In this document: positions 2,385 to 53,774 of the stretch, piece after piece
How the letters are laid out: each line of letters opens with the position of its first letter
How positions within the stretch are numbered: the stretch's first letter is position 1
UHGV virus genome: UHGV-0222911
Reading direction: 5' to 3' (one strand)
DNA length: 64,000 bases
DNA from: a virus
Notes under the pieces: generated by a model
What the model was told of the DNA's origin: nothing
What the model saw: only the letters and a program-made list of their open reading frames with translations
The model's database searches: none
Translations under genes and position numbers: made by a program

Positions 2385-10388
<8,004 letters not shown>

Positions 10389-20203: not shown

Positions 20204-21303
20204 TTATTCATAATCCCTAATAACTAGCCCGACAGGGAACTGTAAAGAACCCTTACGAGTCATCTTCTGGAACTGAACCGTTAAAGGTTTCCCGATAAAC
20301 TCTTCAGGATGCTCAGCAAGATACTGTTTCTTCTCATGAGTAGTTTTCCATGAGACATCTACAAAGACGTTAGGAAGAGTCTCTACAACGAACTTGCCAT
20401 GACCACGCTTATCAGTCTTTACACCAGTCACTTTAAACTCTTCAGTGTGCATCTTCTTGTGCTTAATCAAGAAGTATGAACGGTGACAACACTCATAGAA
20501 GGAGTCTTCAGAGATTGAACGGTACATTGCACCTTCAAACTTAGCTTCAACCCACTTATCATGAGCTTCATCAAACTCTTCCCAAGAATTTACACGACGA
20601 GACTTAACAGGAACAACTTTACAGCCGTCTCTAAAGTCATTCAATGGTGAAGTCTCAATAATATCTCTACGCTCAGGCCACGTCTTAGTGCTGTCACAGA
20701 TATCGTACCAGTAGAACTGGAGTAGATGTCGGTCTGGATTGTCAGCATTCTTAATCATAGACACAATATCTTCTAAGTCCCAACCATGAGCATAAATCTC
20801 ACCATCAAAGTCTTCGACTTGTGGATGCAATTTAAGCAACAAAAGCAAATCTGGGATTAGTTCTTCTGGGACGTTGTAAACAGTATTCTCACGAGAATAA
20901 GCCGTGAAGCTAACTAAATCAGCATCTCTTGAAATTCTACAACGAACACCATCAAGTTTTGGTTGAGCATCAGCAGGGAATATCAAATACTTTGCATGGC
21001 TAACCTTTGCAGCATCATGAGCAAGCTGTACACCCACCTTTTCAGTATTCTGTGCAGACTCTTTTGTGTAAGCATAACCTTTGCGGTCAACTTGCTTCTT
21101 GTACTTAGCAGTAACTTCAAAGAGAGCTTGCTGTTCAGCGTTACGCTCATTCTTTTTACCGATGTTTTTAGGTTCTGCTGTATACTCTTCAAACATCATC
21201 TTGCCATTTTCTTTACCGTAGGTTGTAATAACTTTGTCACCTACAGCAACGCATGACCAGACGTTGAATGAGCCGTCTTTATTTTGTTTGTACAGTATTG
21301 TCA
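20204..21303 (-). CDS. ATP-dependent DNA ligase
   Basis: Adenylation motif I KLDGVR; start set at internal Met (MTILYKQ) preceded by GAGGA SD; longest ORF would start at 21340. Confidence 0.8.
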
Positions 21304-21305
21304 TT

Positions 21306-21497
21306 TTATTCCTCTGAATGATACCAAGTGTTGCAAGCATTACATGCGTAAAGCTCTAAGTCATTTTTATCTGGTTTATGAAAACAGTTTGCTCCGCAGT
21401 GGCAACGAAATGGCTTTCCACCAACTGTTAGGATGAAGGATTGAACCTTTCCATCAGGAGTTCGTACAGCATTTTTATGCTTATCTTCTTTGTTCAT
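21306..21497 (-). CDS. small Cys-rich zinc-finger protein (paralog 1)
   Basis: 63 aa; FRCHCGANCFHKPD...YACNACN; paralog of 21822..22025. Confidence 0.4.
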   Translation of the reverse strand: MNKEDKHKNAVRTPDGKVQSFILTVGGKPFRCHCGANCFHKPDKNDLELYACNACNTWYHSEE

Positions 21498-21576: not shown

Positions 21577-21825
21577 TTAAATTGAATTTATCGCTTCCAT
21601 GTGTTTTTCGTAGAAATCTAAACATTTTTCATCTTGCTCCTTTATGTAACTATCATAAAATTCCGGTGATTCTGGTCTTTCGCCAAAGGAAATAACCTTC
21701 AGGTAGTACTTCCCATATGTGGAGCCATCTAACCAAGAATCAAATAGTAATTTCTTAGTATTAGTCTTTGGAGGGATTACCAAGCTTTTCTCATACAATT
21801 CCTTCATTTCTTGAGTTATCTTCAT
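21577..21825 (-). CDS. hypothetical protein
   Basis: 82 aa ORF. Confidence 0.4.
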   Translation of the reverse strand: MKITQEMKELYEKSLVIPPKTNTKKLLFDSWLDGSTYGKYYLKVISFGERPESPEFYDSYIKEQDEKCLDFYEKHMEAINSI

Positions 21826-22025
21826 TGCATATCCTTAATCTTACCTAAGAACCTTACACCACAACTATTACACTCGTATATGTCTAAATTTGTGTTATCA
21901 GGTTTATGAAAACAGTTTGACCCGCAACGACACCTGAATAGCTTACCATCGACACGAAGAATGAATGTTTCAAGCTCACCATCTTCTGTAAGAACTGCGT
22001 TCTTAAATTTATCTTCTACAGTCAT
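21822..22025 (-). CDS. small Cys-rich zinc-finger protein (paralog 2)
   Basis: 67 aa; FRCRCGSNCFHKPD...YECNSCG; same architecture as 21306..21497. Confidence 0.4.
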   Translation of the reverse strand: MTVEDKFKNAVLTEDGELETFILRVDGKLFRCRCGSNCFHKPDNTNLDIYECNSCGVRFLGKIKDMQ

Positions 22026-22238: not shown

Positions 22239-22496
22239 TCACTCAATAACCGTAGTGTGTGATTGACCATTTTTCCCATAACTATAAGATGTTGTTGTTT
22301 GAGAGTTTGGACATCTGACAACAACAATATCTCTGCTTATGGCATCACCATGTAACTTATAGACTTTGCAATCTTGCATCTCTGGTGGGAGGCTATAAGA
22401 AGCGTTTTTGTCCTCGTAAGAGGGGTTGCAGCCAGATAGAAAAATTACTCCAAGTGCAACCATTGCTTTCACACAACTCTTAACCTTATTGTTCAC
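22239..22496 (-). CDS. lipoprotein
   Basis: 85 aa; signal peptide with lipobox ...GVIFLSGC (MNNKVKSCVKAMVALGVIFLSGCNPSY). Confidence 0.5.
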   Translation of the reverse strand: MNNKVKSCVKAMVALGVIFLSGCNPSYEDKNASYSLPPEMQDCKVYKLHGDAISRDIVVVRCPNSQTTTSYSYGKNGQSHTTVIE

Positions 22497-22628
22497 GATA
22501 GTCTACCTCTCTGTATGTTTTTAAATAGTGGGTAATGAGTTCTGGTAATTCACTACGTTTAACGTTTGAACGAAGAAGTGTCCAGTCAAAACCTTTACCA
22601 ACCCTTCCCCAGAGACTGTACATTTTCT

Positions 22629-22862
22629 TCATAGCAACTCCAGAATATCAATACGTTCACCTTTAAGTACTCCAGTACGGTCTTTTGCAATCTTACCGTC
22701 AACGATAAGGATGTGTGTAGACCTTAAAGCGTCGTTGTTAAAGGTTTTTACGAACTTGCTAGGCATGACTACAATGGACATCTCCTGAATTAACTCTGGA
22801 GTGTAGCAGTTATCATGAAGTTGCTGAATAACGTCTGCAAGTGTCATTTTTGATGTCTCCAA
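22629..22862 (-). CDS. hypothetical protein
   Basis: 77 aa ORF. Confidence 0.4.
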   Translation of the reverse strand: METSKMTLADVIQQLHDNCYTPELIQEMSIVVMPSKFVKTFNNDALRSTHILIVDGKIAKDRTGVLKGERIDILELL

Positions 22863-23114: not shown

Positions 23115-25814
23115 TTAGTGCACTTCAAGCCAGCTTTTACCAACCTTACCAGTACCTGTTACAAGTGTTTCTTTCTTAAGACCTAAATTCTTAGAAGCTT
23201 GTCCATAATACCAGTCAGTAACTGCTTTCACTTCTGCCGTCATACTTTCTGGACATTCCCAGCTTGTTTCATCGTGATATGCGCAGAGCAAACGAGCACC
23301 AATAGCTGGTTTACGACCATTTAACTTCATCAAACCTTCGTCAATCATACGACGACAAGCAAGGTTAATTGCCTCATTTTGAATCTGAGCCTCTGAACCC
23401 ATCAAAAGATAGTTCAACAGTTTGTGTGGAGATTTACACCACAACCAAGCTCCAGCAACCTTTACAAATCCCCCTTTAGAGATTGCAGCGGTCTTACCAA
23501 AAACCTCTTCAAGTGCCTTTTTAGTCGCTTTGTAGTCAGCTTCCAAGTCATCTAGCAACTTCTTAATTTTAGGCAAACGAATAAAGTAAGTCTGTTTAGT
23601 CAGTGCACCTTCCTGAGTAGTTGCAGCTTTAATTGTCTTAGCAAACTTCTCATCACCTGCACCGAACAGCAGTGCATAGATACCATTCTTAGCTTTTTTA
23701 CGACCCTTACTAATCTCATGGAGAAGATTCTCATCCTGAGTGGCTCGACAAGTCAAGATATCCTGCTCATCATTCAAGCTAAAGTAAATACTGTTCAGTG
23801 TGTGTGCATCAGTCCCTGAATAGACAACGTACAGGTCATTCTCAGAGTCATAGCGGAGGTACTTATCAATCTCTGGGTTGAGGTACTCATCAAAGTGTTT
23901 GCAGTAATAGCGTCCATCTTCTTGACGAATAAACTCAATCTCTTCTTTACCTTGCGTTACCGCTTTGGTGAAGTCTTTGTCACCCATAAAGTTACAAAGA
24001 AGAACTAGCTGGGCTGAGTTCATGTCTACAGAGACAACGTTAGTACCTTCTTCACAAATCCATACTGCCCTCATTGGTTCCCCATAGACAGCAGCACCAG
24101 ACGGTACGTTTACAATACCATATTGTGTCATACGTCCAGTTGAAGTACCAAATACCATTGCACCAGCACTAAGGCGACCATCTGGACGAATCTGGTTTAG
24201 CCAACCTTTTTCATCATCCTTTGAGTTCTCAATGGTTCTGCGTCGGTGCATCAAAGTATAGTATTTAGCAATCTTCTGTCCAAGCTCACCTTCAATCGTA
24301 TCATAAGAAGATTCAGTAAGTTTTGGTGAAGTACGGATTAAGCAAGGTTCAAGCAAATCCGTGTACTTCTTCACAGACCAGTTATGTTCGATGTACTGGA
24401 CACCTTCGTGTTCAACATAACTCAACCCACACCGTTCAACCATCTCCTGCCACTTAGGATGCTTTGTAATCATCTTTTTGTTGTCTTTGAAACGACAAAC
24501 TTTGACAGGGCGACCGTCTGAATCTTTCTTGTAGTTCCAGTCATCTGGAATCCAACCAACTGATTTCAAGTAGTCTTTAACAACTGCTACCTGAGTCATA
24601 CGAGAAACTTCAAACTCAATTGGTGTATATGGTGCATCAATCAATCCTGTGTAGCGACTTGACTCAAGCTCAAAGTGGTTAACAACATGACTGTTATAGT
24701 ACTTCACAGTTTTAACTGTTTTTACTGGCTTCCAGTCTTTGCATTTCTTACCAATCTTTGCATTCAACTCATTGCAAATTGCACGAGCATCCTTCATTGC
24801 TACAAAACCCTCCTTGTACTCTTCACCAGTTACAGAGTTGGTTGGTGTATAGCAATTTCTCTTTTCAATGTTAAAAATCTTTGTAGTTGGCTTACCAAAT
24901 GGCTTGATTTCATATGTCTGCATCTCACCGTTACGTACCTGCTGACGATACTTTGTCTTAGGGTACTTGGTAATTCTCTTCAGTCCATCTGCGTGACCAA
25001 ATGCTTCAACATACTCATTCCAAGCTTTTGCAAACTCTTCTCCAGTGACTTTACCTTTGGTCTTAATAGTTGGAGGAAGATGTGGTTCAACTTCTGAAGC
25101 AAGCTCATTAGTCAACTTGTCAAGTTCCTTTACATGGAACTCCATAAGCTCTTTATCAGCTTTCCAACCATTGATAGCTTGTTGACTCATCCAGAAAGAT
25201 GTTTCTTTAGCTCGCATATAGGTTTCATAAGTGTCTATGCCACACTTCTTTAGCTTGAGATACTCATTATCCAGTGCGCGTTTAGTTTTGGCGTTAATAC
25301 GGATATCTTCCACAACACGAGTGAAGATTTCTGCATTCCACACACCCCAATGTTCAATCTCTGGTTTACGGACACCAACACGAGCACCCCATGCAGCCAA
25401 GCCATGAGCACCTTTATAGCCTTTTGGAGTTGGTCTATCCATCCACTGAACACGAGACTGGATAAGAGAATCCTGAAAGAAATTACTCCACGGCTTACAC
25501 TTTGGATTATCAAAGTTCCATAAATCAGGTGCAATGTGATTGAAAACCCACCAGTCATAACCCAGACCATTATGGATGCAAAGTCGTTTTGCCTTTAACG
25601 CAAACTCAATACCTTCACGCAAACCACCCTTGATGTACTTGGTGTATTTGTGACCGAGGATAGGCTCATCTGTAAAGACCCATACAGGTGGCTCTTCATC
25701 GTCAGATTTATAGTCTGCGAAAGCCATTACGTGCACTTTAGTGAACTCAAGGAGTAAACCATCAGTTTCTGTATCACCAACTAAATGTAAGTTTTTAAAA
25801 TCTACGTTTTCCAT
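23115..25814 (-). CDS. DNA polymerase, family A, with 3'-5' exonuclease domain
   Basis: Exo I motif GDTETDG; Pol motif A-like VSVDMNSAQLVLL, motif B KNGIYALLFGAG, motif C CAYHDE; start set at Met preceded by GAGGGAG SD (longest ORF starts 25844). Confidence 0.9.
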   Translation of the reverse strand: MENVDFKNLHLVGDTETDGLLLEFTKVHVMAFADYKSDDEEPPVWVFTDEPILGHKYTKYIKGGLREGIEFALKAKRLCIHNGLGYDWWVFNHIAPDLWNFDNPKCKPWSNFFQDSLIQSRVQWMDRPTPKGYKGAHGLAAWGARVGVRKPEIEHWGVWNAEIFTRVVEDIRINAKTKRALDNEYLKLKKCGIDTYETYMRAKETSFWMSQQAINGWKADKELMEFHVKELDKLTNELASEVEPHLPPTIKTKGKVTGEEFAKAWNEYVEAFGHADGLKRITKYPKTKYRQQVRNGEMQTYEIKPFGKPTTKIFNIEKRNCYTPTNSVTGEEYKEGFVAMKDARAICNELNAKIGKKCKDWKPVKTVKTVKYYNSHVVNHFELESSRYTGLIDAPYTPIEFEVSRMTQVAVVKDYLKSVGWIPDDWNYKKDSDGRPVKVCRFKDNKKMITKHPKWQEMVERCGLSYVEHEGVQYIEHNWSVKKYTDLLEPCLIRTSPKLTESSYDTIEGELGQKIAKYYTLMHRRRTIENSKDDEKGWLNQIRPDGRLSAGAMVFGTSTGRMTQYGIVNVPSGAAVYGEPMRAVWICEEGTNVVSVDMNSAQLVLLCNFMGDKDFTKAVTQGKEEIEFIRQEDGRYYCKHFDEYLNPEIDKYLRYDSENDLYVVYSGTDAHTLNSIYFSLNDEQDILTCRATQDENLLHEISKGRKKAKNGIYALLFGAGDEKFAKTIKAATTQEGALTKQTYFIRLPKIKKLLDDLEADYKATKKALEEVFGKTAAISKGGFVKVAGAWLWCKSPHKLLNYLLMGSEAQIQNEAINLACRRMIDEGLMKLNGRKPAIGARLLCAYHDETSWECPESMTAEVKAVTDWYYGQASKNLGLKKETLVTGTGKVGKSWLEVH

Positions 25815-26071
25815 TTTTACTCCCTCTAAAATCATTAACCTCATACATTACTGCAAAAAATTATAAAAAGCAAGTTGACAATGTACTTGACAAGGTGTTA
25901 ATCTTTGCGAAGTGGGTTTTTACTTAAAAGGTTACTTAACAGTTTAACTATACAGATACTTTAAAACTCTTAAAAGATTATTTAATAGCTTTTAAAAAGT
26001 TTTAAAGTATAACGTATAGAATACGTTAAGATAAAAGATTAAAACTTAATAGTTACTTAAAAGAGGCTTAC

Positions 26072-51513: not shown

Positions 51514-52062
51514 ATGAAGAAATTGATTCTAGGCTTGTGCTTAATGTTTACAGCACACTTATCTTATGCAGTTGACTGCCCAGAGCTATCAATTAGCCAA
51601 AAAGTTAACATGTTAAAAGCTTACCAGTATGGTGAGAATAATATGGGGAAAGGCTGGGGTATTACTCTAGCAGCTATAGCCTTACAAGAGTCAGAGTTAG
51701 GTCTGAAGGTAGAGAATAAAAAGACCCACGACTATGGTATTTTCCAGAATCACTTGAAGACTGTTGTAAAGCGTAACAAAATTAGTCCTAATGTGGCTAA
51801 AAAGAAACTCTTAAAAGATTTTGACTATGCAGCAAAAGAGACACATAAAGAGCTTGAGTTTTGGACTAAGGTACATGGTCACCCGAAGTCAAAGAAGACT
51901 TTACAAAAAGTTTTAGCATCATATAATGCTGGGTATTCGTACAAAATCCCTAAAGCTAAGAAATACTCTCAAGATGTCTATAACAATATGAAAGTTATCG
52001 CTCAATGTGAATTTGCAACAAACATTTCTAAGGTAAATCATGAAAAAATTAAGAAAGTCTGA
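51514..52062 (+). CDS. secreted lytic transglycosylase (SLT domain) - endolysin candidate
   Basis: 182 aa; signal peptide MKKLILGLCLMFTAHLSYA; SLT-like motifs AIALQESELGL...DYGIFQ and SYNAGYS. Confidence 0.5.
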   Translation: MKKLILGLCLMFTAHLSYAVDCPELSISQKVNMLKAYQYGENNMGKGWGITLAAIALQESELGLKVENKKTHDYGIFQNHLKTVVKRNKISPNVAKKKLLKDFDYAAKETHKELEFWTKVHGHPKSKKTLQKVLASYNAGYSYKIPKAKKYSQDVYNNMKVIAQCEFATNISKVNHEKIKKV

Positions 52063-53263: not shown

Positions 53264-53611
53264 ATGACATTTAAAGAGTTCTGTCAAGCTACTTTCATAA
53301 TTGTTTTCTTAGTTGGGGCAGGTGTCTGGGGAGGATACTCTTACAGAGACTACCAAGTTGCTGAAGCTGAGTTAAGCAATGAGAAACTAATAAGTATTGC
53401 TAAAGACGCTTATCAGGAAGGTTTAGCCACACTGAGCACCAATTACAAAAATGATTTGAAAGATGTGCTTGCTAAGAATAAGCATACAAAAGAGGTACTA
53501 ACATATGAAAAAACTAAGCCAGAGTTTTATAATGTTTGTGTTACTGATAATTATGTCAGGGTGTTCAACGAACAAAGTGAACAGTACATTCAAAAACTCC
53601 CAAGTAAGTGA
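53264..53611 (+). CDS. i-spanin-like protein (Rz-like)
   Basis: 115 aa; N-terminal TM (FIIVFLVGAGVWGGY) then coiled-coil-like region; overlapped by lipoprotein ORF in another frame. Confidence 0.45.
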   Translation: MTFKEFCQATFIIVFLVGAGVWGGYSYRDYQVAEAELSNEKLISIAKDAYQEGLATLSTNYKNDLKDVLAKNKHTKEVLTYEKTKPEFYNVCVTDNYVRVFNEQSEQYIQKLPSK

Positions 53612-53774
53612 GAGTGATAAGTACACTCAAGAAGATTCAAGATTCACTATCAAAGGTAATACTGGTAGTGATGTGGCAGCAGCCCTTGAGTTCTATCGTG
53701 ATGGATTTTACCAGTGCACAATCAAAGCTAATAGCCTTATTGATATGATTTTATTAGGAAATAAACAGCAATGA
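53505..53774 (+). CDS. o-spanin-like lipoprotein (Rz1-like)
   Basis: 89 aa; lipobox LLIIMSGC; starts inside the 3' part of the preceding gene in a different frame. Confidence 0.45.
   Translation: MKKLSQSFIMFVLLIIMSGCSTNKVNSTFKNSQVSESDKYTQEDSRFTIKGNTGSDVAAALEFYRDGFYQCTIKANSLIDMILLGNKQQ

What the first reader, a model, noticed from the sequence alone, without database searches (positions are those of the whole stretch)
22239..22496. Phage lipoprotein: candidate superinfection-exclusion or receptor-masking factor
The 85-aa ORF has a signal peptide ending in the lipobox LSGC. Lipoproteins encoded by virulent phages (for example T5 Llp, T4 Cor-like functions) commonly block the phage's own receptor after infection.
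Basis: partly seen in the sequence, partly recalled or inferred. Interest (0 to 1): 0.4.

Follow-up and report, generated by a model that had tools for sequence, protein, structure and literature searches.

The report
Conserved small phage lipoprotein, function unknown
The ORF is a real, strongly conserved small lipoprotein gene of a Felix O1-like virulent phage, but it belongs to a large uncharacterised family (DUF4884 / PHROG 902) unrelated to the known receptor-blocking lipoproteins Llp, Cor and Rtp45, so a role in superinfection exclusion is plausible but untested.

Summary
Window 22239..22496 (- strand) encodes an 85-aa protein with a typical lipoprotein signal peptide and the lipobox L-S-G-C (Cys23). 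The window is a Felixounavirus genome. The gene lies in the replication-gene block between the DNA polymerase and the DNA ligase.

The protein belongs to PHROG 902 / Pfam DUF4884. This family has about 1,230 clusters at 50% identity and is found almost only in virulent phages of Gram-negative hosts. Nearly all members keep the lipobox, a tether of about 20 residues, and a beta-domain of about 43 residues with two invariant cysteines.

It is not a member of the known exclusion-lipoprotein families:
- With signal peptides removed, profile comparison to Llp/Cor gives 1.6% probability.
- There is no hit to Rtp45 (PF24052).
- There is no structural match to either.

Other points also argue against Llp-style receptor masking:
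- The gene is not next to tail or receptor-binding genes.
- Felixounaviruses use LPS, not a protein receptor.
- Coliphage homologues carry Asp at +2, which predicts inner-membrane retention.

The phage's o-spanin is a different gene (53505..53774).

My best guess is low-confidence. It is a tethered periplasmic binder of a conserved envelope component, acting in receptor-independent exclusion or envelope takeover.

The parts
22239..22496 (-). CDS for the 85-aa prolipoprotein (stop codon at 22239..22241). Member of PHROG 902 / Pfam DUF4884.
   Evidence: ORF list. phrog_902 E=1.7e-17. Homologues carry precomputed PF16225 DUF4884. dN/dS 0.16 against phage DE17.
22506..22509 (-). GAGG Shine-Dalgarno-like motif, 9 nt upstream of the GTG start.
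   Evidence: Read directly from the sequence.
22431..22496 (-). Signal peptide, residues 1-22: n-region MNNKVKSCVK and h-region AMVALGVIFLSG. Alternative starts are GTG at 22472 and ATG at 22463.
   Evidence: Sequence. Orthologues with shorter N-termini.
22428..22439 (-). Lipobox L20-S21-G22-C23. Cys23 is the predicted lipid-modified first residue of the mature protein. The +2 residue is Asn, which is not the Asp Lol-avoidance signal.
   Evidence: Sequence. At least 240 of the 250 family members fetched have a lipobox, and most of the rest have non-canonical ones.
22371..22427 (-). Tether, residues 24-42 (NPSYEDKNASYSLPPEMQD). The sequence is variable except for Y34, L36, P37, L/M40 and D42.
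   Evidence: Column conservation. Median 20 residues between the lipid Cys and the first core Cys across the family.
22242..22370 (-). Core domain, residues 43-85. It has invariant C43 and C62 (inferred disulfide), the motifs C-K-V-Y, V-V-R-C-P-N-S-x-T and G-K, and a predicted 4-strand beta-meander.
   Evidence: Alignments A2 and A4. AlphaFold2 models: pLDDT 60.8 for the full length and 67.7 for the mature protein, with residues 1-44 of the mature protein at 72-81.

Best explanation
Shown or directly supported. 22239..22496(-) is a genuine gene of a Felix O1-like (Felixounavirus) virulent phage. No terminator-like site separates it from the upstream DNA polymerase gene. It encodes a prolipoprotein. 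After export, lipidation and signal-peptide cleavage at Cys23, the mature protein would be 63 aa. It would consist of a lipid anchor, a flexible tether of about 20 residues, and a beta-domain of about 43 residues. The two invariant cysteines (C43, C62) are inferred to form a disulfide, which implies a periplasmic location. The gene belongs to a very large stand-alone family (DUF4884 / PHROG 902). This family moves singly among the early/middle regions of many unrelated virulent phages of Gram-negative bacteria.

Inferred. In this phage the protein sits in the inner leaflet of the outer membrane, because its +2 residue is Asn. It acts as a small tethered binder of a conserved, periplasm-facing envelope component, not of the phage's own surface receptor.

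Most likely role (low confidence). It gives envelope-level protection to the infected cell. That means receptor-independent superinfection exclusion at a step after adsorption, such as tail penetration or DNA entry. This would work like T4 Imm/Spackle rather than like T5 Llp.
For: Real gene and lipoprotein.

Phage identity and position:
- Felixounavirus identity.
- The gene lies between the DNA polymerase (23115..25844) and the DNA ligase (20204..21340), on the same strand, with no terminator-like site between the polymerase and the gene.

Family found almost only in virulent phages:
- It occurs in Felixounavirus, T5-like Vibrio phages, Saclayvirus, Plateaulakevirus, Vequintavirinae and jumbo phages, and the BFVD matches add further Aeromonas, Acinetobacter and Pseudomonas phages (that some of these are T4-like is my own knowledge).
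- Metagenomic contexts are phage small-ORF arrays carrying RNA ligase, PNKP, DHFR and Cpn10.
- No match in 5,426 complete E. coli genomes.
- Two partial plasmid hits.
- One hit in two pattern scans of 185,579 species genomes.

Stand-alone gene: no conserved neighbour within 2.5 kb across 11 loci.

Not tied to a receptor:
- The gene is never adjacent to tail or RBP genes in any locus examined.
- The Felixounavirus receptor is LPS (PMC8594841).
- The T1-like phage Henu8 has a DUF4884 gene far from its tail genes, plus a separate Cor gene beside them (PMC12210894).

The target is probably reachable from either membrane:
- The coliphage homologues W70 (C-D-Q) and fEgEco12 (C-D-A) carry Asp at +2, as do 43 of 240 members.
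- Llp, Cor and Rtp45 all have Ser, Ala or Thr at +2.

Conserved target: surface-type residues (D42, K44, R61, N64, S65, T67, K75) are conserved across phages of Enterobacterales, Vibrio, Aeromonas and Acinetobacter.
Against: No functional evidence of any kind was obtained. There are no annotated relatives, no informative fold match, no informative domain fusions, and no conserved partner gene.

The structure models are only of moderate confidence. The +2 sorting rule is established for E. coli but not for all hosts, and Asn at +2 was not tested.

The Henu8 co-occurrence argument rests on a distant DUF4884 branch. That branch is only weakly similar to this subfamily (hhalign probability 14%).

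In the T5-like Vibrio phage 70E37-2 I found no lipoprotein next to the RBP gene. There the DUF4884 protein could still be the receptor blocker.

Expression timing is inferred from gene position only. The promoter scan was uninformative.
Confidence: 0.35

Rival explanations
1. Llp/Cor/Rtp45-type receptor masking. The lipoprotein binds the phage's own receptor, or its biogenesis machine, from the periplasmic side. This blocks adsorption of sister phages to infected cells and debris.
For: - It has the same general format as Llp, Cor and Rtp45: a lipoprotein of about 6-7 kDa with one disulfide, in a virulent phage.
- One annotator labelled the jumbo-phage homologue a 'lytic conversion lipoprotein'.
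- Rtp45 shows that such lipoproteins can target LptDE, the LPS translocon (PMC12685063). This gives a conceivable route for an LPS-dependent phage.
- The T5-like Vibrio phage has no other candidate next to its RBP gene.
Against: - No homology once signal peptides are removed: hhalign probability 1.6%, no phrog_1119 hit, no PF24052 hit, and no PDB profile hit to 8a60 or 9rps beyond the signal peptide.
- The 90% hhalign hit and the weak phrog_1119 hit of fEgEco12 g526 cover mainly the signal peptide.
- Foldseek finds neither structure.
- The cysteine layout differs.
- The gene sits in the replication block, not beside tail genes.
- The receptor is LPS, not a barrel protein.
- The family spans phages with unrelated receptors.
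- Asp at +2 in coliphage homologues predicts inner-membrane anchoring.
Confidence: 0.12
2. A host-takeover or protective factor unrelated to superinfection. It would be a tethered inhibitor or modulator of a conserved periplasmic host function. Examples are a peptidoglycan hydrolase, a periplasmic nuclease or protease, an envelope-stress sensor, or an incoming antibacterial effector. Its role would be to keep the envelope intact until programmed lysis.
For: - The family has a broad, receptor-independent distribution and a conserved surface.
- Predicted anchoring to either membrane fits a soluble or peptidoglycan-level target.
- It is an early/middle-region, stand-alone gene.
- Many members add coiled-coil or repeated beta-hairpin C-terminal extensions, as if to oligomerise or to reach across the periplasm.
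Against: - No similarity to known periplasmic inhibitor folds in the PDB.
- No candidate target was identified.
- This idea is indistinguishable from the best explanation with the data available.
Confidence: 0.3
3. A lysis component: an o-spanin (Rz1-like) or another outer-membrane lysis lipoprotein.
For: It is a small phage lipoprotein with periplasmic cysteines, as o-spanins are.
Against: - The phage already has a textbook overlapped spanin pair elsewhere. The i-spanin is at 53264..53611 (phrog_1152, E=1.8e-41). The lipoprotein at 53505..53774 overlaps it out of frame and has a weak hit to the Rz-like spanin phrog_456.
- The gene here has no adjacent or embedding i-spanin gene.
- It lies about 31 kb away from that pair, in the replication block.
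- It is not proline-rich.
- The T5-like Vibrio phage also has separate annotated spanins.
Confidence: 0.03
4. A chance ORF or non-functional remnant.
For: It has a GTG start and a short length, and lipobox-like N-termini occur by chance in other frames.
Against: - The family is conserved across hundreds of phages and about 1,230 clusters, with invariant cysteines.
- dN/dS is 0.16.
- A Shine-Dalgarno motif is present.
Confidence: 0.01

Closest known systems
Pfam DUF4884 (PF16225) / PHROG 902, an uncharacterised small-lipoprotein family
   Same: The query matches phrog_902 directly (E=1.7e-17). Nearly all homologues retrieved carry precomputed PF16225.11 hits. They share the lipobox, the two invariant Cys, and the C-P-N-S and G-K motifs.
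   Different: The older model in the local Pfam copy (PF16225.10, 49 positions) does not detect this subfamily. It detects only the Drexlerviridae branch, and below its cut-off (E=2e-5). No function is known for any member.
T5 Llp and Cor of N15, T1-like phages and prophages (phrog_1119), which block FhuA from the periplasmic side
   Same: It is a phage-encoded lipoprotein of similar size with one disulfide. T5 Llp is likewise made by a virulent phage shortly after infection (bioRxiv 10.64898/2026.03.26.714494). A role in excluding other phages is conceivable.
   Different: - There is no sequence or fold relationship.
- The disulfide in Llp/Cor links the N-terminal region to the extreme C-terminus, whereas here it is C43-C62.
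- Llp/Cor genes sit next to RBP or tail genes, whereas this one sits in the replication block.
- Cor is common in prophages and chromosomes, whereas this family is almost absent there.
- The host receptor here is LPS.
Rtp45-type 'Phage_lipoprotein' family (PF24052; PDB 9RPS), which blocks LptDE-targeting siphophages
   Same: It is a phage lipoprotein of about 6 kDa with one disulfide. Rtp45 shows that such proteins can bind a conserved outer-membrane machine.
   Different: There is no HMM or profile match. Rtp45 has a short Cys30-Cys38 loop and its gene lies next to the RBP gene.
T4 Imm and Spackle, which exclude superinfecting phages at DNA entry or the tail lysozyme step independently of the receptor (my own knowledge, not tested here)
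   Same: This is the kind of mechanism I consider most likely. An early gene of a virulent phage makes a product that acts in the envelope after adsorption.
   Different: Imm and Spackle are not lipoproteins. No sequence comparison was run, and no relationship is claimed.
o-spanins (Rz1-like)
   Same: They are small outer-membrane lipoproteins of phages of Gram-negative hosts, with functionally important cysteines.
   Different: Spanin genes are paired with or embedded in an i-spanin gene in the lysis cassette. This phage has such a pair at 53264..53774.

Membership tests
Bacterial/phage lipoprotein (SPase II substrate) | N-terminal signal peptide with a positively charged n-region, an uncharged h-region and a lipobox [LVI][ASTVI][GAS]C, with the Cys at position 15-35. 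| tested here: met
   The signal peptide is MNNKVKSCVKAMVALGVIFLSG followed by C23. The lipobox is conserved in at least 240 of 250 family members. SignalP and LipoP were not available. Lipidation itself is not testable in silico.
PHROG 902 / Pfam DUF4884 | Significant match to the family HMM. | tested here: met
   phrog_902 E=1.7e-17 over residues 2-83. Homologues carry precomputed PF16225.11. The older local PF16225.10 model gives no hit, so Pfam membership rests on the precomputed table.
PHROG 902 / Pfam DUF4884 | Family-wide invariant positions: the lipid Cys, two further Cys about 18 residues apart, and the P-x-x-L-x-D-C, R-C-P-N-S-x-T and G-K motifs. | tested here: met
   C23, P37, D42, C43, R61, C62, P63, N64, S65, T67, G74 and K75 are all present.
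Llp/Cor superinfection-exclusion lipoproteins (phrog_1119) | Sequence or profile homology of the mature domain. | tested here: not met
   No phrog_1119 hit at E<=10, although Llp and Cor both hit it. The mature-only hhalign of 230 against 30 sequences gives probability 1.6%. The full-length 90% hit covers mainly the signal peptide. The NCBIfam scan returned no family at all at E<=10.
Llp/Cor superinfection-exclusion lipoproteins (phrog_1119) | Fold similar to Llp (PDB 7QJF / 8A60_B). | tested here: inconclusive
   Foldseek against the PDB lists no Llp chain for either model. However, the models have only pLDDT 61-68.
Llp/Cor superinfection-exclusion lipoproteins (phrog_1119) | Gene encoded beside the cognate receptor-binding or tail-tip genes. 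| tested here: not met
   Here the gene lies between the DNA polymerase and the DNA ligase. Homologues in 10 other loci lie in early/middle small-ORF arrays. By contrast, N15 cor and Henu8 cor lie beside tail genes.
Llp/Cor superinfection-exclusion lipoproteins (phrog_1119) | The phage uses an outer-membrane protein receptor that the lipoprotein binds. | not testable with these tools
   [quoted passage not shown] Binding was not tested.
Rtp45-like Phage_lipoprotein (PF24052) | Match to PF24052 or to PDB 9RPS chain D. | tested here: not met
   pSf-1 gp84 hits PF24052 at 2.9e-23 and 9rps_D at 1.3e-7. The query and the family profile hit neither.
o-spanin (Rz1-like) | Gene embedded in, overlapping or adjacent to an i-spanin gene in the lysis region. 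| tested here: not met
   The neighbours are small cytoplasmic-type ORFs of unknown PHROGs. The phage's spanin pair is at 53264..53611 and 53505..53774.
T4 Imm / Spackle-type exclusion proteins | Sequence homology to Imm or Spackle. | not tested
   No comparison was run. These proteins are cited only as a mechanistic analogy from my own knowledge.

The most novel reading that the evidence does not exclude
DUF4884 lipoproteins could be a previously unrecognised, widespread class of receptor-independent envelope effectors of virulent phages. Each would be a lipid-tethered mini-domain that binds one conserved periplasmic or envelope component of Gram-negative bacteria. It would thereby block entry of many unrelated superinfecting phages, or neutralise a conserved envelope process. 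This would explain why the same gene has spread singly through Felix O1-like, T5-like, rV5-like and jumbo phages, and (by BFVD fold matches) further Aeromonas, Acinetobacter and Pseudomonas phages.
Probability: 0.3. Interest if true: 0.65.

Novelty: new variant of a known kind. Interest (0 to 1): 0.35.

Why it matters
Small phage lipoproteins are one of the few understood ways in which a virus rewires the Gram-negative envelope from the inside. Every characterised case (Llp, Cor, Rtp45) is matched to a receptor and encoded beside the receptor-binding protein. This family is much larger, with about 1,230 clusters at 50% identity. It is confined to virulent phages, is not linked to tail genes, and is shared by phages with unrelated receptors. 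If it acts on a conserved envelope component, it would define a general exclusion or takeover mechanism. It could also point to a conserved, phage-validated vulnerable site in the envelope. It matters in practice for phage cocktails too, because cross-exclusion could occur between co-administered Felix O1-like, rV5-like and T5-like phages. If it has no such role, it remains an ordinary conserved hypothetical gene.

Tried and rejected
- **Pfam, NCBIfam and PADLOC scans of the query.** Nothing significant was found. The DUF4884 assignment comes only from precomputed PF16225.11 hits on homologues.
- **PDB sequence searches.** The single-sequence search and the family-profile search found only signal-peptide-level matches.
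- **Structure prediction and fold search.** I made two AlphaFold2 models (pLDDT 60.8 and 67.7). Foldseek against the PDB gave no match with E<1. Foldseek against BFVD gave only uncharacterised members of the same family.
- **Full-length hhalign to Llp and Cor.** This gave 90% and 75% probability, but the alignments cover mainly the signal peptide. I rejected them after the mature-only comparison.
- **Conserved-neighbour search.** All-vs-all BLASTP of ORFs within 2.5 kb in 11 loci found nothing.
- **Domain-fusion search.** Scanning the longest family members gave no informative Pfam domain.
- **Promoter and terminator scan.** Hits were no more frequent than in shuffled sequence.
- **Bacterial genome scans.** The first pattern found no relatives. 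The second found one, in Hylemonella gracilis.
- **pSf-1.** I expected a DUF4884 gene there, by analogy with Henu8, but it has none at that position. I found the gene in JLBYU26 instead.
- **T5-like Vibrio phage 70E37-2.** I looked for a second, RBP-adjacent lipoprotein and found none, so that test is uninformative.
- **Literature searches.** I searched for PF16225, DUF4884, Felix O1 lipoprotein and phage lipoprotein exclusion. No functional study of this family turned up.
- **o-spanin and chance-ORF readings.** Both were rejected.
Full report
**1. What is in the sequence**

Window 22239..22496 on the - strand is an 85-codon ORF with a GTG start. Its product is MNNKVKSCVKAMVALGVIFLSGC|NPSYEDKNASYSLPPEMQDCKVYKLHGDAISRDIVVVRCPNSQTTTSYSYGKNGQSHTTVIE.

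The N-terminus has the three parts of a lipoprotein signal peptide:
- a basic n-region (K4, K6, K10);
- an uncharged hydrophobic stretch (residues 11-22);
- the lipobox L-S-G-C, with Cys at position 23.

A GAGG motif lies 9 nt upstream of the GTG. The start overlaps the last 11 nt of the upstream 48-codon ORF (22486..22632), as is usual in tightly packed phage operons.

Two other starts are possible, GTG at 22472 and ATG at 22463. Many orthologues begin near residue 8-9 with M-W-K or M-L-K. In phage DE17 the N-terminal extension is not conserved.

A six-frame scan for lipobox-type N-termini found only three other ORFs in the 64 kb. One is the o-spanin (section 5). The other two are in frames that are not coding. 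A lipobox alone is therefore weak evidence, and conservation is what makes this gene real.

**2. The genome and the neighbourhood**

The region is 90-97% identical to many Felixounavirus (Felix O1-like) genomes of Escherichia, Salmonella, Shigella and Citrobacter.

The gene lies on the - strand in a run of small ORFs. This run sits between the 909-aa DNA polymerase (23115..25844) and the 378-aa DNA ligase (20204..21340). Its immediate neighbours belong to PHROGs of unknown function.

No terminator-like site lies between the polymerase and the gene. The promoter scan is no better than shuffled sequence. Early/middle co-transcription with the replication genes is therefore an inference from gene order, not a demonstrated fact.

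**3. The family**

The query matches PHROG 902 ('unknown function') at E=1.7e-17. It has no hit in the local Pfam-A, NCBIfam or PADLOC libraries. Nearly all of its homologues in the large protein collection carry a precomputed hit to PF16225.11, which is DUF4884. The local Pfam copy holds the older PF16225.10 model, which misses this subfamily.

tblastn finds relatives in 588 phage records:
- Felixounavirus and related Ounavirinae;
- about 295 T5-like Vibrio phages of about 114 kb;
- Acinetobacter Saclayvirus;
- Aeromonas Plateaulakevirus;
- rV5-like Vequintavirinae;
- jumbo phages of E. coli and Erwinia.

Foldseek against BFVD adds Aeromonas phages Aeh1 and phiAS5, Pseudomonas phage pf16, Vibrio phage JSF10 and Acinetobacter phage ME3. 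These proteins are labelled 'Lipoprotein' or left uncharacterised.

A profile search of 1.84 billion representative proteins gives 1,230 clusters at E<=1e-3 and 697 at E<=1e-10. All of the 150 best hits listed are small proteins of 71-154 aa.

Of the 250 members fetched, at least 240 have a canonical lipobox. Most of the rest have near-canonical ones such as M-M-G-C. The typical mature protein has exactly three cysteines, namely the lipid Cys and two others. The median distance from the lipid Cys to the first core Cys is 20 residues.

The column-by-column alignment shows these invariant or near-invariant positions: C23, P37, D42, C43, R61, C62, P63, N64, S65, T67, G74 and K75.

Between this phage and DE17 the gene has dN/dS = 0.16.

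The family is almost absent from cellular genomes:
- no match in 5,426 complete E. coli genomes;
- two partial matches in Acinetobacter plasmids;
- one locus, in Hylemonella gracilis, from two pattern scans of one genome per species. These scans use narrow peptide patterns and have limited sensitivity.

Metagenomic contigs carrying the gene look like large virulent phages. They have small-ORF arrays with RNA ligases, PNKP, DHFR, Cpn10 and a Ro60-like protein.

No neighbouring gene is conserved between lineages. The gene therefore travels alone.

**4. Anatomy**

AlphaFold2 with 90-109 homologues gives moderate-confidence models. The full-length model has pLDDT 60.8. The mature-protein model has pLDDT 67.7, with its first 44 residues at 72-81. 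Both models show a short N-terminal strand in the tether followed by a four-strand beta-meander.

The two invariant cysteines lie at the start of the first core strand and the end of the second. I infer a disulfide between them, which fits an exported protein.

The tether is variable in sequence apart from a Y-x-L-P-x-x-L-x-D motif just before C43.

**5. Tests against known kinds**

(a) *Llp/Cor.* T5 Llp (PDB 8A60_B, 7QJF) and N15 Cor both fall in phrog_1119. The query does not hit this family, even at E<=10.

A full-length profile comparison with Llp gave 90% probability. However, the 34 aligned columns are mainly the signal peptide plus a short C-x-x-Y stretch. The same artefact explains two other results: the weak phrog_1119 hit of the jumbo-phage homologue, and probably its 'lytic conversion lipoprotein' label.

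With signal peptides removed, hhalign of 230 family members against 30 Llp/Cor sequences gives probability 1.6%. The disulfide layout also differs. In Llp/Cor the second Cys is at the extreme C-terminus.

(b) *Rtp45.* This LptDE-binding exclusion lipoprotein is described in PMC12685063. It is PDB 9RPS_D and Pfam PF24052. Neither the query nor the family profile hits it.

(c) *Fold.* Foldseek against the PDB returns nothing below E=1 and lists none of these chains. Given the quality of the models, this is weak evidence.

(d) *o-Spanin.* The phage has a classic overlapped pair elsewhere. The first gene is at 53264..53611 (115 aa, N-terminal TM segment, phrog_1152 'Rz-like spanin', E=1.8e-41). 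It is overlapped out of frame by 53505..53774, an 89-aa lipoprotein with a weak hit to the Rz-like spanin phrog_456. The spanin role is therefore taken.

**6. What this implies for function**

- Characterised receptor-blocking lipoproteins are encoded beside the receptor-binding protein and co-vary with it (PMC8594841; N15 and Henu8 layouts). This gene is in the replication block. Its homologues in ten other loci are likewise never beside tail genes.
[quoted passage not shown] A 6-7 kDa periplasmic lipoprotein cannot mask pre-existing surface LPS in any known way.
- The same domain is conserved in phages with different tails, hosts and receptors. This suggests a conserved target rather than a lineage-specific receptor.
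- Sorting signals differ among coliphage homologues. This phage has C-N. The rV5-like phage W70 has C-D-Q and the jumbo phage fEgEco12 has C-D-A. Asp occupies +2 in 43 of 240 members. By the established E. coli '+2 rule' (from general knowledge), Asp at +2 retains a lipoprotein in the inner membrane, especially with Gln at +3. Llp, Cor and Rtp45-type proteins all have Ser, Ala or Thr at +2. A domain that works from either membrane on a 20-residue tether is more likely to reach a periplasmic target than to dock on the base of an outer-membrane barrel.
- The T1-like phage Henu8 has a 'DUF4884 domain-containing protein' (ORF6) far from its tail genes, and a separate Cor protein (ORF45) beside them (PMC12210894). 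That Drexlerviridae branch (sequence from JLBYU26) is only remotely similar to this subfamily (hhalign probability 14%, same Cys/Y/G-K layout). The argument is therefore supportive, not decisive.

One test was uninformative. The T5-like Vibrio phage 70E37-2 has no lipoprotein near its tail genes. In that phage the DUF4884 protein could still be the receptor blocker.

**7. Best explanation and rivals**

I am highly confident that this is a real gene and a real exported lipoprotein.

For function I commit, at about 0.35, to a tethered periplasmic binder of a conserved envelope component that protects the infected cell at the envelope. The most likely form is receptor-independent exclusion of superinfecting phages after adsorption. 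This would work like T4 Imm/Spackle, which is an analogy from general knowledge and was not tested.

The rivals are:
- A host-takeover or protective factor unrelated to superinfection (about 0.3). The present data cannot separate it from the best explanation.
- Llp-type receptor masking, possibly through LptDE as for Rtp45 (about 0.12).
- A lysis role (about 0.03).
- A chance ORF (about 0.01).

**8. Novelty and verdict**

The gene itself is catalogued. It is a 'hypothetical protein' in hundreds of Felixounavirus records, and it belongs to PHROG 902 and DUF4884. I found no functional study of the family.

It is the same general kind of thing as the known phage envelope lipoproteins. However, it is a separate family with a different genomic logic and a much wider distribution. 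I therefore rate it a new variant of a known kind, with moderate interest (0.35). It is a good, cheap experimental target, but nothing in the sequence is surprising on its own.

Noticed in passing
window 53264..53611 (+) and 53505..53774 (+): This is an overlapped, out-of-frame gene pair typical of i-spanin/o-spanin. The first gene encodes a 115-aa protein with an N-terminal TM segment (phrog_1152 Rz-like spanin, E=1.8e-41). The second encodes an 89-aa lipoprotein, MKKLSQSFIMFVLLIIMSGC|STNK... (phrog_4180; weak hit to phrog_456 Rz-like spanin). It is the only other credible lipoprotein gene in the window.
   Followed up: partly
window 51514..52062 (+): A 182-aa ORF with a cleavable-looking signal peptide (MKKLILGLCLMFTAHLSYA) lies about 1.2 kb upstream of the spanin pair. 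It matches phrog_600 (unknown function, E=1.3e-57). It may be a second exported phage protein.
   Followed up: no
window 21306..21497 (-) and 21822..22025 (-): Two small ORFs (63 and 67 aa) just downstream of the lipoprotein gene are paralogues. They are 58% identical (BLASTP E=1e-27) and share a C-x-C...C-x-x-C zinc-ribbon-like pattern. In phage DE17 the counterpart of one of them is annotated 'DNA ligase', which looks like a mis-annotation.
   Followed up: partly
L002 (Escherichia phage fEgEco12) 3007..3258 and 3620..3895: This jumbo phage has the DUF4884 homologue g526 and, two genes downstream, a second small lipoprotein g528 (phrog_31263, 91 aa, five Cys in the mature part, with a 'YVYECPGH' motif reminiscent of 'VVVRCPNS'). 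Both are annotated 'lytic conversion lipoprotein'. g528 may be a divergent paralogue.
   Followed up: partly
family members P0172, P0181, P0085, P0077, P0161 (repeats); P0042, P0055, P0124, P0041, P0159, P0218, P0227 (helix motif); P0206, P0221, P0225, P0235 (coiled coil): Many longer family members add C-terminal extensions after a Pro/Glu-rich linker. Some have one or two copies of an 'I-x-V-(D/N)-G-x-x-Y-x-K' hairpin-like motif. Others have a conserved 'A-L-x-K-L-(T/S)-x-E-E-(K/R)-x-x-L-G-(L/I/V)' helix or a coiled coil. None matches a Pfam domain. The protein in this window ends where these extensions begin (…TTVIE).
   Followed up: partly
L013 (Hylemonella gracilis ATCC 19624 contig) 7986..8264: This is the only bacterial-genome relative found. 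It is a 92-aa lipoprotein (…LAGC|DRTP…DCKIFRL…VVRCPNSSTTT…) in a region with an XRE-type regulator, an endonuclease/exonuclease/phosphatase-like secreted protein and a 639-aa coiled-coil protein. The region looks like a genomic island rather than a prophage.
   Followed up: no
Pfam model versions: The local Pfam-A copy (PF16225.10, 49 positions) does not detect this subfamily at all. The precomputed table (PF16225.11) marks nearly every homologue retrieved as DUF4884. Family assignment therefore depends on the Pfam release used.
   Followed up: partly
L016 (Vibrio phage 70E37-2) record 66777..66953: This T5-like Vibrio phage has a second tiny lipoprotein (58 aa, MKYIIIMMGMLLAGC|SNG…, with two 'KNCTV' repeats) inside its tRNA gene cluster. 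It has no lipoprotein near its tail or RBP genes.
   Followed up: no
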